The position numbers were made by a program, and so were the translations under genes. Below the pieces are notes generated by a model, which was not told the origin of the DNA, did not search any database, and saw nothing but the letters and a program-made list of their open reading frames with translations. A stretch of 63,999 bases of DNA, filler included, from Malassezia furfur (lineage: Eukaryota), in assembly GCA_052055015.1 (NCBI GenBank). It is 3 parts of 3 records of this genome, joined end to end, with 100 filler letters (N's around TTAATTAATTAA, not from the genome) between each part and the next. Parts side by side here need not be neighbours in the genome. Positions count along the whole stretch, not along the records: positions 23,668 to 47,161 come from JBQJIT010000151.1; 2 more parts are not named here. One strand, 5' to 3'. The stretch's first letter is position 1; each line of letters starts with the position of its first letter. Below are positions 23,568 to 47,261 of this stretch, one piece after another.

Positions 23568-23667
23568 NNNNNNNNNNNNNNNNNNNNNNNNNNNNNNNNN
23601 NNNNNNNNNNNTTAATTAATTAANNNNNNNNNNNNNNNNNNNNNNNNNNNNNNNNNNNNNNNNNNNN
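23568..23667. other. Assembly gap with artificial TTAATTAATTAA linker
   Basis: N-run with a central six-frame-stop linker, identical to the one in the second gap. Confidence 0.95.
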
Positions 23668-40994: not shown

Positions 40995-43173
40995 CTACAC
41001 CTCCGCGGGGTCGCTCGCCGCAGGGCCGCGCCACCGATGCTGCGCAACACTACCTGCCTGGCCGTCGCCGCCGTCCCATGACGTGCTCATGAGCGTCGGC
41101 TCATCCGAGTGCCAGCTGACGTCGCGCACAATGCACTTGTCGCGCTGCGGTGCGCCGCGCATGCGGCTAAAGCGCGGCACAAAGTGGATGCGCTGCGCGC
41201 GCCGCGCGGGCGGCAAATCCCACTCGGGCGCGAGCGGGTCGCTGGCGCGCCCGTCGTCGTGCTGCATCGGGTGCACATAATTGCGGTCGATCACCTGGAC
41301 GACGCGCCCGTCGAGCGACCAGATCTGGGTGAGAAGGCGGAGACGACGTACATGGATGCGCCCGTCGGCGCTGCCCGAGTAGATGTACTGCTGCCCCGTG
41401 GTGGCGCGCGGGCTGAAGTAGCAGCGGATGAGCGTGCGGAGCACCGAGTGGCCGCCTGTGTGAGTGCATGGGTGCACGTACGATAGGTCATCACCGAGCA
41501 GTCCTCCGGGTGCGCATAGTAGCGCGGGCGGCGGTAGGGCATGTACCGGTAGTCCCAGTTGCGCAGACCGTAGTCGAGCGGCGCCCAGTTCTCCACGGTC
41601 TCGAGCGAGACAAGGTTGCGCAGATCCCACAGCCGCACGCTCTGGTCCTTGGAGTTGGAGATGCAGTAGCGCCCGTCGCCCTTGGGCGCGATGTACGTAA
41701 TGCCCTCGGTGTGGCCCGGCAGGCACCCCGCGGGTTTGCCGCGCACCAGCGAGCGGCGGTCCCACACCTTGAGCATCGAGTCGTCGCTCCCGCTCACAAA
41801 CACATTCGAAGAGGTGGCGTCCGCAAACGTCACGCTGTTCACGTCGTCGTTGTGCGCGCCGACGCTGAGCACGCGGCGCTGGGCCTCGATGTCGTACACA
41901 TAAATGTAGCCGTAGTGCGCGCCCGCGATGATCTCACGCGAATCGCCTGAGAAGCGCAGCGACCAGATCTGCGTGAGTGGGTGCGACGTACGCCCGAATG
42001 CTGCCCGGTGTTGGCTGAGAAGTCGAGCGTCACCTGGTTCGCCGCACCGCCCGCGTCGTCGTCGACGTGGCGCACGGGCGACAGGCCGACGTACGGAGAG
42101 ATGCTCGAGTACACGATCCACTGGTTGTCCGGCGACAGGTTGACGTCGGTGATCGTCCACTGCCCCCGCTGTGCCTCGACGGTCTGGATGAGGTTCAGCG
42201 AGGTGACCTGCTCGATCGCGTCGTCGTCCATCCCGCCAAAGTAGCTGGTGTCGCGCACCGTCTCGGGACGCTTGCGCGGCGCCATGGTCGTGTCGTACAC
42301 CTGCGTCAGTCGCACCACGTACATGGACTCGCATGTCGCGCGTGCACGTATAGAAGAACGAGGAGTCTGCGTCAGCGTCCGTACCCACCTTCCGAGTACT
42401 GTCCGCTGTAGCACGGTGCGGGGTACTCGGCCACCAGCACGCCACGCGAGCTCGGTAGGAGGGGGTACGCCATGTCTGCCTTGCGTGGCACGCGTGCGAG
42501 CTGCTTGCGCCGCGCAATCTGCGCCGCAAGGCTCTGAGTTCGTGCGGTATAGGGCTGCGTTGGCGGGTCACGTACCATGCCAAAGTCGCCACTGCACTTG
42601 AGCTCCTGTCCGGCGCGCACAGGCTCGGTGACCGGCTCCCATAGATCCAGCGGCGCGTCCAAGGGGCGTTCCCAGCGCGAGAGGAGCTGCGTAAGCCATT
42701 GGGACGTACGCCCGAGCCGTCTTCCGAATCCTCGCTGGGCGGGTCGTCCGTATCGAACGACGCCATTCCGTACGTTAGCAGCTGCTGCAACTCCCGTAGG
42801 CTCAGGTGCCGCACATGGTGCTCGATCGTCGTTCCGTTCGCGTCCTCGGTCTCGAGAAAGAAGATGCCGCACGGACCACCCTCGATGGCGCCAGGGTGCA
42901 TCGCATCGTCCTCATCGACATCCTCAGCATCCTCCTCGTCGAGATCCTCCTCGTCCTCCTCGTCCTCCTCGTCGTCCTCGTTTTCGTCGTCCTCGCTGCG
43001 TCAGCGCCCGCGACGCACTCCTCGTAGTCGTCATCAAACTCGCTCTCAGGCATCCCCTGTGCGGCCATGATCTCGGCAAGGTGGTCCGGATCACGCCCAA
43101 ACGAGTCGGGCGAGCCCGATCCTGACGACGCTGTACGTGGGCTCCGGTGCGCCGCACTCTCTCGATCCGACAT
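40995..43173 (-). CDS. WD40 protein of the WDR23/DCAF11 (LEC14B) family
   Basis: Acidic N-terminus; IWSLRFSGDSREI, GHTEGITYIAPKGDGRYCISNSKDQ, GHSVLRTLIRCYFSP..TGQQYIYSGSADG, IVRDVSWH; many 22-25 nt introns. Confidence 0.88.
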
Positions 43174-43275: not shown

Positions 43276-44865
43276 ATGCTTCGCGCGCTCCGCCCCACGC
43301 ACCTCGCCCTACGCACGGCCGCGCGTGGCACACGCATCACACCCCGGTATACTGCGGTGTGTCTGCGTACCGTATCGCGCGGCATCGCGACCGACCGCTG
43401 GAAAAAGTACCCGTTTGACCCGTCGGGCGCCCTCGACGAGCATGGGCACATCCCTGCGGCGCCGTACGACTTATCGCCCTTGCCCGGCTCTGCCCCCGAA
43501 TACCAGACGCACCTTGTCCTTTTGCCGCGCGAGTACCCGCACCCGGACACGACATGGCCCTCGCATATCGACGCGGCGTGCCCCTTATACGCGGAGCTAT
43601 CCAGCCGCGCGCGTCAGGGGGGCTCTCTCGAAGGATACGGACTGAGCTTCGCCTCGAGCGATACACCTGTCCCCACACACGACACCCCGGGACTCGCGCC
43701 GTGGGATCCGCACCGCGCCGCCGCCATGCGTTCGCCGCCCAACCAGGCCGTCGAGGACGAAACGTTCACGCTGTATGCCTATCGTACGCCCGGCCACTTT
43801 GTCGAATACCCAGAGCCACTGTCGCTGCGCACGCTTCCAAGCGGACAGGCCCTCCGCGAAACGCTCGATACGCTCTTTGCGCGTCCCGACGCACGCCTCG
43901 ACTCGGAGACCCACATCTTTGTGTGCACGCATGGCATGCGCGACTGCCGGTGTGGCGTGGTGGGCACCGAACTCCGCGAGGCCCTTCAGCACAAGGTGCA
44001 GGAGCACGTCGCCCAGTGCAAGAAGGACGGCAGCAAGCCGGCGCGCCGCGTGCGCGTGCTCGACATTAGCCACGTTGGAGGTCACAAGGTTCGTCGCTTG
44101 CACACTCACCTCAGTGGGCCGCCAATGCTCTCGTATACCCCCACGGCGACTGGTACGGCAACCTCCGTGTGTCGGATGCACCGTACGTGCCAGCGCATTC
44201 CTGACTTCAGCCTTCTGCTGCGCGCAGCCCTCGCACCAGCATCATCGCGACACGATTTGCAAGACCTCCGCGAACGGCTCGTGGTCTGGCCACGATGGCG
44301 CGGCCGGCTCGGCATGTCGTCGCAGGACGCGCGCGAGCACATGAATCTCTGGGGACCCCCGGTAGTCTATTCGGCACAGATCGCACCGCGTGCGCGCGGC
44401 GCTCCTACCGGTGCGTCTTCGTCGTCTGCGGCGGCCCCCGCGGCCCCTGCGGATGCCGCGCCATCTTCGCGCTCGCACGCAACGCATGCGCCGCTCCGCT
44501 TCCACGGCTACGACGGACAGTGGTACGACGTGGAGGGTATCGTCGGCGAAACGCTTATGGAAACGGCAAAACGTCACAATCTTCCCTCGATCGAAGCTAC
44601 ATGCGGCGGCGAGCTGGAGTGCGCGACCTGCCATGCCTACCTCTGCGACGCCCAGCGCCAGGATCCCCAAGCACGTGGCGACGTGGACCACGTGCCGTCC
44701 GACGGGGACGCGCTGTTTGGTCCGATGTCGGACGAGGAGGACGACATGCTCGAGTATGCGATCGACCGCCGCGCATCGAGCCGGCTCACCTGCCAGATCG
44801 CTGTGTCCCGTCGCATTGCGGACTGGATGGAAAAAGGCGGCCGTGTCGAGCTGCCGCGCTACTAG
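43276..44865 (+). CDS. Apd1/Aim32-type thioredoxin-like ferredoxin fused to an adrenodoxin-type [2Fe-2S] ferredoxin
   Basis: Presequence; CTHGMRDCRC...SHVGGHK|WAAN..YPHGDWYG; C-terminal CGGELECATCH...SRLTCQI; introns 44089-44114 and 44183-44210. Confidence 0.85.
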   Translation: MLRALRPTHLALRTAARGTRITPRYTAVCLRTVSRGIATDRWKKYPFDPSGALDEHGHIPAAPYDLSPLPGSAPEYQTHLVLLPREYPHPDTTWPSHIDAACPLYAELSSRARQGGSLEGYGLSFASSDTPVPTHDTPGLAPWDPHRAAAMRSPPNQAVEDETFTLYAYRTPGHFVEYPEPLSLRTLPSGQALRETLDTLFARPDARLDSETHIFVCTHGMRDCRCGVVGTELREALQHKVQEHVAQCKKDGSKPARRVRVLDISHVGGHKVRRLHTHLSGPPMLSYTPTATGTATSVCRMHRTCQRIPDFSLLLRAALAPASSRHDLQDLRERLVVWPRWRGRLGMSSQDAREHMNLWGPPVVYSAQIAPRARGAPTGASSSSAAAPAAPADAAPSSRSHATHAPLRFHGYDGQWYDVEGIVGETLMETAKRHNLPSIEATCGGELECATCHAYLCDAQRQDPQARGDVDHVPSDGDALFGPMSDEEDDMLEYAIDRRASSRLTCQIAVSRRIADWMEKGGRVELPRY

Positions 44866-44983: not shown

Positions 44984-45522
44984 ATGTTTCGCCAGTCGCT
45001 CCTCTCTGCTGCTCGCAACGTCAACGCTCGGGTACGTACAGGGCCTAGCCGGATTAACACCACAGTCTTTCTCGTCGACCTCGGCTGCTCAGCTGGCCCG
45101 TGTGAACATCATCGGCCGCCTCGTGGGCCAGCCTGAGGTGCGCGAGACGCGCTCGGGCAAGGAGTACCTTCGCTACATTGTGGCCACCACCGACCCTCTT
45201 GGCCCGCCCAACGAGGACGGAAGTACGTTTCCGCACCATAACGCTTACCCAGCGCCTGCCCAGCCCACCTCGTCGTTCCACTCGATCTTTGCATTCGGTG
45301 AGACGACGGTCAACCGTCTGCGTGACCTGCCCAAGGGGTACGTCGTGTCCAGCTGACCTATAGTACGCTGATGTACGTCGAGGGCGACTTCCGCGTGACG
45401 CGCACGCCTGGCGAGAATGGCGCGCCGCCCGTGGACCAGTGGCTCATCCAGCACCGTACGTGGCTTAGCGACTGACCCCAGGGAACTACAATGTGCTGCT
45501 CCGTCCGAAGAACGACTACTAA
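44984..45522 (+). CDS. RIM1: Mitochondrial single-stranded DNA-binding protein (Rim1-like)
   Basis: Spliced over four introns: MFRQSLLSAARNVNAR|SFSST..VNIIGRLVGQPE..YLRYIVAT..LPKG|TLMYVEG. Confidence 0.8.
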
Positions 45523-47161: not shown

Positions 47162-47261
47162 NNNNNNNNNNNNNNNNNNNNNNNNNNNNNNNNNNNNNNN
47201 NNNNNTTAATTAATTAANNNNNNNNNNNNNNNNNNNNNNNNNNNNNNNNNNNNNNNNNNNN
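47162..47261. other. Assembly gap with artificial TTAATTAATTAA linker
   Basis: N-run with the same linker as the first gap. Confidence 0.95.

What the first reader, a model, noticed from the sequence alone, without database searches (positions are those of the whole stretch)
43276..44865. Two different [2Fe-2S] modules in one mitochondrial polypeptide (Apd1/Aim32-like plus adrenodoxin-like)
Seen: an Arg-rich presequence, then C-x8-C...H-x-G-G-H (CTHGMRDCRC, HVGGH), an Ala/Ser/Pro linker, and C-x5-C-x2-C...C (CGGELECATC..RLTCQ) with the acidic EEDDML patch. Established: the first motif is the 2Cys-2His cluster of Apd1/Aim32; the second is Yah1/adrenodoxin type. Inference: the fusion is a Rosetta-stone hint that the poorly understood Apd1/Aim32 proteins exchange electrons with a ferredoxin. 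COQ5 lies about 2.3 kb away, which may be coincidence.
Basis: partly seen in the sequence, partly recalled or inferred. Interest (0 to 1): 0.72.

Follow-up and report, generated by a model that had tools for sequence, protein, structure and literature searches.

The report
Ancient fungal two-cluster mitochondrial ferredoxin fusion
A mitochondrial protein of a skin yeast joins a poorly understood iron-sulfur domain (Aim32 type) to its own private ferredoxin, a pairing kept from the earliest fungi to many basidiomycetes but not described for baker's yeast, which points to where this enigmatic domain gets its electrons.

Summary
Confirmed, with a corrected gene model. Two micro-introns (26+28 nt) leave the 529-codon frame open by chance; the spliced product is 511 aa and still one chain: presequence, Aim32/Apd1-type 2Cys-2His domain, Ala/Ser/Pro linker, adrenodoxin-type ferredoxin. 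The genome (Malassezia-like, two gene copies) has separate YAH1 and LIP5 genes. The fusion is not a local oddity: named homologues from 41 fungal genera carry it, from Rozella and chytrids to all three basidiomycete subphyla. The ferredoxin is its own paralogue clade (Glu before the second Cys in 100 of 100; no Yah1 tail). Its linkers lack a processing-peptidase motif (0 of 109), so it is probably not cleaved. Sampled Agaricales/Phallales lost the ferredoxin; smut fungi replaced it by lipoyl synthase behind a presequence-like linker (17 of 18), which explains the wrong database name 'lipoyl synthase'. In Rhodotorula toruloides the fusion gene is scored non-essential while YAH1, ARH1 and LIP5 are essential. 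Best reading (0.55): the ferredoxin relays electrons from Arh1 to the higher-potential His-ligated cluster. Electron transfer, cluster binding and final acceptor are inferred, not shown. COQ5 proximity looks coincidental.

The parts
43276..44088 (+). Exon 1: presequence and most of the Aim32/Apd1-type thioredoxin-like ferredoxin (TLF) domain, through the His motif
43276..43395 (+). Probable mitochondrial presequence (about 40 aa; 8 Arg, 0 Lys, 1 acidic); boundary approximate
   Evidence: the same region is pLDDT <50 in the model of homologue P0004; targeting is inferred
43924..43953 (+). C-x8-C ligand pair of the TLF cluster, with an extra Cys two residues before the second ligand (98 of 100 complete fusions)
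   Evidence: ligand columns invariant in 89 aligned homologues
44071..44085 (+). H-x-G-G-H ligand pair (39 residues after the second Cys), followed by a Lys kept in 89 of 100 ferredoxin fusions and 0 of 19 lipoyl-synthase fusions
44089..44114 (+). Intron 1, 26 nt, GT..AG, branch-point motif CTCAC
   Evidence: inferred from sequence; no reads
44115..44182 (+). Exon 2, 68 nt, conserved TLF strand and Trp-containing motif; missed by the unspliced frame
   Evidence: 4 of 4 substitutions silent
44183..44210 (+). Intron 2, 28 nt, GT..AG, branch-point motif CTGAC
   Evidence: inferred from sequence; no reads
44211..44865 (+). Exon 3: end of TLF domain, linker, ferredoxin domain, stop codon
   Evidence: TLF part: 21 silent, 0 replacement codon differences in 51 codons
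44296..44307 (+). WRGR motif closing the TLF domain, near-invariant
44365..44484 (+). Ala/Ser/Pro linker, about 40 aa, disordered in the homologue model, no R-x-[YF]-[AS]-[TS] cleavage motif
44485..44862 (+). Adrenodoxin-type [2Fe-2S] ferredoxin domain of a separate paralogue clade; 53 residues between Cys3 and Cys4 (insertion); ends right after the last strand in an aromatic residue
44602..44631 (+). C-x5-C-x2-C ligands with the clade-specific Glu before the second Cys
   Evidence: 100 of 100 fusions; 0 of 75 other ferredoxins
44734..44757 (+). Acidic helix equivalent to the reductase/partner-binding helix of adrenodoxin
   Evidence: role from PMC12855868 passages
44782..44796 (+). Motif holding the fourth Cys ligand

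Best explanation
A single-chain mitochondrial-matrix protein with two [2Fe-2S] centres that works as a self-contained electron-transfer pair. After import and loss of the presequence it stays uncleaved. The C-terminal ferredoxin, a private paralogue of the mitochondrial ferredoxin that arose in or before the fungal ancestor, takes electrons from the adrenodoxin reductase Arh1 (or another flavoprotein) through its acidic helix, swings on the flexible linker, and reduces the His-ligated iron of the Aim32-type domain, whose potential should be higher. That domain is the business end: it passes proton-coupled electrons to a terminal acceptor in redox protection or detoxification, as proposed for yeast Aim32/Apd1. 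Shown here: gene structure (indirectly), both motif sets and folds, conservation, age, distinctness from Yah1. From the literature: ligand set and higher potential of 2Cys-2His clusters, role of the acidic helix. Inferred: import, no cleavage, cluster binding, direction of flow, reductase, final acceptor.
For: Architecture kept in 100 of 367 stored proteins (redundant set, includes this protein), named members from 41 genera including Rozella, chytrids, Dispira, Calcarisporiella, Mortierella and all three basidiomycete subphyla. Seven ligand columns invariant and the eighth at least 90% conserved in 89 homologues. Both domains conserved between the two copies: silent/replacement codon differences 65/22 and 21/0 (TLF), 25/8 (ferredoxin) against 12/9 (linker), 13/10 (presequence). 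0 of 109 linkers carry the strict cleavage motif (3 of 109 a loose one), median net charge 0, some only a few residues long. Acidic residue at the adrenodoxin D76-equivalent in 94 of 100, at both D76 and D79 equivalents in 76 of 100; this helix binds the reductase and partners in FDX1 (PMC12855868 passages). His ligation raises the potential by up to about 200 mV per Cys-to-His change, Apd1/Aim32 named (bioRxiv 10.64898/2026.10.21.760712 passage). Not a stand-in for Yah1: YAH1 is separate here and scored essential in R. toruloides although the fusion gene 13280 is present, transcribed and non-essential (PMC7873862 supplement rows). The Lys beside the His ligands is lost in the lineage that lost the ferredoxin (89 of 100 against 0 of 19), as a docking residue would be; this is one evolutionary event.
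Against: The TLF domain persists with its ligands intact after losing the ferredoxin: sampled Agaricales/Phallales (4 named; 25 solo proteins keep all ligands), smut fungi (19 proteins), and yeast Aim32, whose TLF is described as C-terminal (PMC8482512 passage). So the ferredoxin is dispensable in several lineages and no replacement donor was identified. The Lys beside the His motif is still present in 18 of 25 solo TLFs, which weakens it as a docking marker. Tilletia species have gene models with this ferredoxin alone behind a presequence-like N-terminus, so it may work apart from the TLF. The same TLF has been joined to an unrelated-looking partner once (lipoyl synthase), so fusion alone can be a by-product of shared import. 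The cleavage motif was written after seeing the smut linkers and is narrow. No reads, proteomics of the intact chain, potentials or cluster contents were available; the R. toruloides protein was barely detected (3 of 11 conditions).
Confidence: 0.55

Rival explanations
1. Redox-gated Fe-S donor or repair protein (mitoNEET-like, analogy recalled): the ferredoxin does set the redox state of the His-ligated cluster, but the product is cluster delivery to oxidatively damaged mitochondrial Fe-S enzymes rather than onward electron flow.
For: AIM32 overexpression partly protects aconitase in sod2-deleted yeast under primaquine (PMC4683384 passages); non-essential under standard growth in R. toruloides; extra Cys beside the ligand pair in 98 of 100.
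Against: No passage seen reports cluster transfer from Apd1/Aim32; protection of aconitase is also explained by a redox role; nothing in the sequence singles out a client.
Confidence: 0.15
2. Lipoylation accessory: the two alternative fusion partners of this TLF (a tail-less ferredoxin, and lipoyl synthase) mark one pathway; the ferredoxin is a fungal counterpart of FDX1 feeding lipoyl synthase, and the TLF helps reduce or rebuild its clusters.
For: 20 stored proteins carry lipoyl synthase with its cluster motifs intact behind this N-terminal domain (19 with the full TLF motif), one clade nested among ferredoxin fusions (SH-aLRT 99). Human lipoylation depends on FDX1, and ferredoxin C-termini help set target specificity (PMC11618653 passages; title and passages of PMC10470009). 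No complete fusion has the Yah1/FDX2 'RN' tail (0 of 100).
Against: LIP5 is essential and the fusion gene non-essential in R. toruloides, on different scaffolds. 17 of 18 smut linkers end in a presequence-like, almost acid-free stretch with a cleavage motif, so the two parts probably separate after import. One fusion event only. A high-potential His-ligated cluster is a poor reductant for a radical-SAM cluster (inference). LIP5 is a separate gene in this genome.
Confidence: 0.12
3. Tandem precursor like Arg5,6 or S. pombe Etp1: one presequence imports two proteins that the processing peptidase separates, and they need not interact.
For: Such precursors exist in fungi (PMC8734313 sections 10-11). 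Ustilaginomycotina linkers begin with an Arg cluster, and one Malassezia linker resembles a cleavage site. Stand-alone gene models in Tilletia.
Against: 0 of 109 strict and 3 of 109 loose motifs; many linkers are short or acidic, unlike the internal targeting-like sequences described for cleaved precursors.
Confidence: 0.1
4. Uncleaved but functionally uncoupled, or flow in the other direction: the TLF anchors or senses, and the ferredoxin donates to an outside client (for example an oxygenase), much as class I P450 ferredoxins do.
For: The Malassezia ferredoxin's best solved matches are bacterial P450/FdVI-type ferredoxins (3HUI 61.4 bits, 1E9M 52; Yah1 2MJD 41.5; Z 16.1); an aromatic last residue in 83 of 95 suggests a partner-recognition site.
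Against: The early-diverging homologue P0133 is closest to mitochondrial ferredoxins (Etp1fd 98.7, FDX2 87, Yah1 81.4, 3HUI 58.4 bits), so the bacterial likeness may be drift; no candidate client was identified.
Confidence: 0.08

Closest known systems
Saccharomyces cerevisiae Aim32 (mitochondrial) and Apd1 (cytosolic), PF06999, bis-histidinyl non-Rieske [2Fe-2S] proteins
   Same: C-X8-C-X24-75-H-X-G-G-H motif (PMC11138216 passage; spacing 39 here), PF06999 above cut-off, thioredoxin-like ferredoxin fold in the homologue model (1F37, Z 10.4), presequence as in Aim32.
   Different: Carries a second, four-Cys ferredoxin domain; Aim32's TLF is described as C-terminal. Lacks Apd1's C-terminal Trp signal for cytosolic assembly. 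Orthology to yeast Aim32 was not tested: no ascomycete sequence was in hand.
Mitochondrial adrenodoxin-type ferredoxins Yah1 / Etp1fd / FDX2 / FDX1 (PF00111)
   Same: C-x5-C-x2-C...C ligands, acidic helix, beta-grasp fold.
   Different: Separate clade (support 92/94, not starred); Glu before the second Cys (0 of 2 own YAH1, 0 of 73 bacterial); no 'RN' tail; 53-residue Cys3-Cys4 spacing in this protein; tethered; coexists with YAH1.
Alphaproteobacterial FdVI/FdxE and class I P450 ferredoxins (1E9M, 3HUI, putidaredoxin)
   Same: Best sequence and structure matches for the Malassezia domain; nearest named stand-alone non-fungal hits are 106-aa proteobacterial ferredoxins.
   Different: Not supported as the origin: early-diverging homologue is closer to mitochondrial ferredoxins and a clade with YAH1 is not rejected (p-AU 0.196). 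No TLF within 120 bacterial ferredoxin loci.
MPP-cleaved mitochondrial tandem precursors (Arg5,6, Atp25, S. pombe Etp1 and Rsm22-Cox11; PMC8734313)
   Same: Two modules behind one presequence; the smut TLF-lipoyl synthase form fits this kind well (17 of 18).
   Different: The TLF-ferredoxin linkers lack the motif (0 of 109).

Membership tests
Apd1/Aim32-type TLF (PF06999) | C-X8-C-X24-75-H-X-G-G-H motif | tested here: met
   spacing 8 and 39; motif from PMC11138216 passage
Apd1/Aim32-type TLF (PF06999) | PF06999 above gathering cut-off | tested here: met
   66.7 bits unspliced; 100 bits for spliced homologue P0004; cut-off 34.9
Apd1/Aim32-type TLF (PF06999) | Thioredoxin-like ferredoxin fold | tested here: met
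   on the model of homologue P0004 (61% identical): 1F37 Z 10.4, rmsd 2.2 over 98; 5ABR Z 9.6
Apd1/Aim32-type TLF (PF06999) | Binds a 2Cys-2His [2Fe-2S] cluster with proton-coupled electron transfer | not testable with these tools
   needs EPR/Mossbauer and titration
Aim32 (mitochondrial member) | Cleavable matrix presequence | tested here: inconclusive
   composition only: 8 Arg, 1 acidic in 40 aa; net charge at least +3 in the first 30 aa of 63 of 82 near-full-length fusions; no targeting predictor was run
Aim32 (mitochondrial member) | Orthology to S. cerevisiae Aim32 | not tested
   no ascomycete sequence among the named hits; only two PF06999 loci (the two copies) found in the own genome
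Apd1 (cytosolic member) | C-terminal [LIM]-[DES]-[WF] tripeptide for the cytosolic assembly complex | tested here: not met
   ends Pro-Arg-Tyr; motif from the abstract listing and passages of PMC10245660
Adrenodoxin-type ferredoxin (PF00111) | C-x5-C-x2-C ... C ligand set | tested here: met
Adrenodoxin-type ferredoxin (PF00111) | 35-37 residues between third and fourth Cys | tested here: not met
   53 here, an insertion; 28 of 100 fusions have 35-37; the homologue model still matches the fold (3HUI Z 16.1, rmsd 2.7 over 110)
Adrenodoxin-type ferredoxin (PF00111) | Acidic partner-binding helix (D76/D79 of adrenodoxin, numbering recalled) | tested here: met
   Asp and Glu here; both acidic in 76 of 100; alignments
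Adrenodoxin-type ferredoxin (PF00111) | Reduced by adrenodoxin reductase (Arh1) | not testable with these tools
   needs an in vitro assay
Yah1 orthologue | Groups with Yah1 and is the genome's ISC ferredoxin | tested here: not met
   separate YAH1 copies L001, L002 score 131 bits to 2MJD against 41.5 for this domain; different side of a 92/94 branch; a deeper common origin with YAH1 is not rejected
MPP-cleaved tandem precursor | Conserved internal targeting-like linker with cleavage motif | tested here: not met
   0 of 109 strict, 3 of 109 loose; own motif (recalled pattern), the published iMTS-L predictor could not be run
Lipoyl synthase (name given to several Malassezia homologues) | LIAS_N and radical SAM domains | tested here: not met
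   absent from this protein and from P0005; the real LIP5 is a separate gene, L008

The most novel reading that the evidence does not exclude
Fungi ancestrally had a second mitochondrial ferredoxin, hard-wired to an Aim32-type 2Cys-2His domain, forming a stress-time electron and cluster supply line for lipoyl synthase and other fragile Fe-S enzymes; the swap of the ferredoxin for lipoyl synthase in smut fungi records that link, and yeast Aim32 is the truncated remnant that now borrows electrons from Yah1.
Probability: 0.15. Interest if true: 0.85.

Novelty: new variant of a known kind. Interest (0 to 1): 0.6.

Why it matters
The function and redox partner of Apd1/Aim32-type proteins are described as unresolved (PMC8482512 and PMC11138216 passages). 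A natural single-chain version with a built-in ferredoxin, conserved back to Rozella, names a candidate donor and gives one purified protein in which donor, acceptor and direction can be measured. It also reveals a mitochondrial ferredoxin paralogue that yeast genetics could not see, present in Malassezia and Cryptococcus homologues, and explains a propagated misannotation ('lipoyl synthase'). Limits: both domains are known families, the architecture is already visible in automatic annotation, and the gene is non-essential in the one species with data.

Tried and rejected
Complex prediction of TLF with ferredoxin (homologue P0133, two 2Fe-2S ligands): no verdict, score 0.10 against a mark of 0.34, alignments not used; counted neither for nor against. 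AlphaFold2 models of P0004 and P0133 fold both domains well (mean pLDDT 85.1, 86.5) with a low-confidence linker and pTM 0.68; no cluster-to-cluster distance could be read from them. Bacterial origin of the ferredoxin, suggested (one search used patterns drawn from the query), was weakened; origin left open, mitochondrial duplication favoured. Tree limits: 105 columns; 61 of 118 collected rows used, and two long-branch rows (P0149, P0253) dropped; 6 of 70 rows skipped. COQ5 link rejected (intervening WD40 gene; other scaffold in R. toruloides). A triple fusion with the downstream SSB gene in two Malassezia models (P0015, P0018) looks like merged gene models: here a stop at 44865 precedes a separate ATG at 44984. 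No TLF next to bacterial ferredoxins in 120 loci. No PDB entry matched the TLF part by sequence. Earlier scan findings: none. Spliced reads remain unexamined.

Full report
1. Observation. The frame is interrupted in life by two micro-introns, 44089-44114 and 44183-44210. Together they are 54 nt, so the unspliced frame stays open; splicing both gives 511 aa, splicing one gives an early stop. Support is indirect: GT..AG ends and branch-point motifs, the middle exon's sequence in most homologues, and 4 of 4 substitutions silent in the spliced frame against 0 of 4 in the unspliced one between the genome's two copies. No reads were examined. Splicing does not separate the two modules.

2. Genome context. 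Closest named homologues are Malassezia. The genome holds a second copy at 88% identity, two canonical YAH1 copies (131 bits to yeast Yah1), a separate LIP5, and no other PF06999 locus in two searches. COQ5 starts about 2.3 kb upstream, beyond a WD40 gene; in R. toruloides the two genes are on different scaffolds, so I drop that link.

3. Distribution. Three homologue searches and one profile search left 367 stored proteins, a redundant set with many fragments; 100 hold both complete motif sets. Named proteins with both domains (a few with the ferredoxin incomplete) come from 41 genera: 28 named. I asked names for 30 of the 150 representatives only. They span Rozella, chytrids, Dispira, Calcarisporiella, Mortierellaceae, Pucciniomycotina, Tremellomycetes, Cantharellales, Exobasidiomycetes and Malassezia. 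No named hit was an ascomycete; that is not shown absence. Ferredoxin-less relatives were named from Cyathus, Tetrapyrgos, Ephemerocybe, Clathrus, Mycoemilia and a glaucophyte. In the TLF tree the Ustilaginomycotina form one group (SH-aLRT 99) that includes the smut proteins, and 19 solo proteins group at 88 among fusions (quick method). The simplest reading is an ancestral fungal fusion with later losses (inference; the root is not determined).

4. The ferredoxin. It is adrenodoxin-type by ligands, acidic helix and fold. It is not Yah1: a Glu precedes the second Cys in 100 of 100 fusions and in 0 of 75 other ferredoxins; none has the 'RN' tail that own YAH1 has; 83 of 95 short-tailed ones end in Tyr or Phe. 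The fused and Tilletia domains are one side of a 92/94 branch, not starred; joining them with YAH1 is not rejected (p-AU 0.196). The Malassezia domain scores best to bacterial FdVI/P450-type ferredoxins, the Calcarisporiella one to Etp1fd, FDX2 and Yah1. I favour an old duplication of the mitochondrial ferredoxin; origin is unresolved. C-termini help set ferredoxin specificity but are not essential for cluster synthesis in vitro (PMC11618653), so the missing tail is a hint only.

5. One chain or two? Fungi have cleaved tandem precursors (PMC8734313). The family supplies its own contrast. Twenty proteins of smut fungi carry lipoyl synthase in place of the ferredoxin; 17 of 18 linkers that could be cut out have an Arg-rich, nearly acid-free stretch ending in R-x-[YF]-[AS]-[TS]. 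Of 109 ferredoxin linkers none has it, 3 a looser form; median net charge is 0. The pattern was written after seeing the smut linkers, so 17 of 18 is partly circular and 0 of 109 does not exclude other sites.

6. Genetics elsewhere. In R. toruloides the fusion gene (13280, PF00111 + PF06999) is scored not essential; YAH1, ARH1, LIP5, COX15 and COQ5 essential, COQ6 not essential. It is transcribed in all 13 conditions, and the protein is detected faintly in 3 of 11. So it cannot replace Yah1 and is not the sole donor for lipoyl synthase. Fitness tables were cut and may bear on function.

7. Mechanism. Best explanation (0.55): reductase to ferredoxin to His-ligated cluster to a terminal acceptor. 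Direction rests on the higher potential of His-ligated clusters and the retained acidic helix. The Lys beside the His motif disappears where the ferredoxin was swapped out (89 of 100 against 0 of 19) but stays in 18 of 25 solo proteins. Against: repeated loss of the ferredoxin, stand-alone Tilletia models, and no biochemical data. The final acceptor is open; yeast data point to redox protection. Rivals: redox-gated cluster repair (0.15), lipoylation accessory (0.12), cleaved precursor (0.10), uncoupled or outward donor (0.08).

8. Known or new. It works like Aim32 with an adrenodoxin attached. It meets the tested features of the Apd1/Aim32 family; it is not Apd1 (no C-terminal signal), not Yah1, not lipoyl synthase. 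The architecture stands in automatic annotation. Paper searches listed no title or abstract start about it; I did not read most of those papers. Seen: passages of PMC8482512, PMC11138216, PMC4683384, PMC10470009, PMC12855868, PMC11618653, PMC10245660 and bioRxiv 10.64898/2026.10.21.760712; passages and sections 10-11 of PMC8734313; supplement rows of PMC7873862 and PMC5922974. Stegmaier et al. 2019 (JACS), the founding paper, is not held and is known to me only through citing passages; it or its supplement may list this fusion. The mitoNEET analogy, adrenodoxin numbering, cleavage pattern and taxonomic groupings are recalled.

9. Verdict. Real, ancient and conserved; a new variant of known kinds. 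Interest 0.6: it makes the open question of the Aim32-type electron partner directly testable in one polypeptide, but mechanism is inferred and prior mention cannot be excluded.

Noticed in passing
proteins P0031-P0036, P0038, P0040-P0046, P0048, P0056, P0058, P0060, P0064, P0065: In Ustilaginomycetes (Ustilago, Sporisorium, Melanopsichium, Moesziomyces, Pseudozyma, Thecaphora, Violaceomyces) the same TLF is fused to full-length lipoyl synthase through a presequence-like linker: a probable undescribed cleaved tandem precursor, and the source of the name 'lipoyl synthase' on Malassezia, Ceraceosorus and R. toruloides homologues that have no such domain.
   Followed up: partly
proteins P0148, P0154, P0161, P0262, P0264: Tilletia gene models with this ferredoxin type alone behind a presequence-like N-terminus, nested beside the Tilletia fusion P0024 in the tree; recent fission or duplicate, or split gene models; genomes could not be checked.
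   Followed up: partly
window 44089-44210: Two micro-introns summing to 54 nt leave the unspliced frame open in both gene copies, so ORF callers store a wrong 40-residue stretch (P0001, P0002; similar in P0003). Double retention would give a full-length chain lacking the conserved strand after the His motif; whether that isoform exists is unknown.
   Followed up: partly
G000 (L001/L002, L004/L005): 13.7 Mb assembly with two diverged copies of this gene (88% protein identity) and of YAH1, but one LIP5 match: looks like a hybrid or diploid Malassezia assembly.
   Followed up: no
window 41291-43173 (-) and 43276 (+): A WD40-repeat gene starts about 100 bp upstream on the other strand; the short shared upstream region is well conserved in the second copy.
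   Followed up: no
window 44984-45522 (+): Intron-rich mitochondrial SSB-like gene 118 bp downstream; same neighbour merged into gene models of two other Malassezia species (P0015, P0018).
   Followed up: partly
protein P0053: An unnamed smut-type TLF with the lipoyl-synthase linker followed by a leucine-rich-repeat domain (PF14580) instead; single Logan contig, possibly chimeric.
   Followed up: no
proteins P0060, P0162: Clearly fungal homologues filed under plants (Cichorium endivia, Adiantum nelumboides): probable contamination of those assemblies.
   Followed up: no
PMC7873862 Table_1 row 12634: R. toruloides has a second, ferredoxin-less sucrase/ferredoxin-like gene, more abundant in proteomics; no second such gene was found in this genome.
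   Followed up: no
window 23568-23667 and 47162-47261: Runs of N: the window spans several contigs; the gene lies wholly inside C151.
   Followed up: yes
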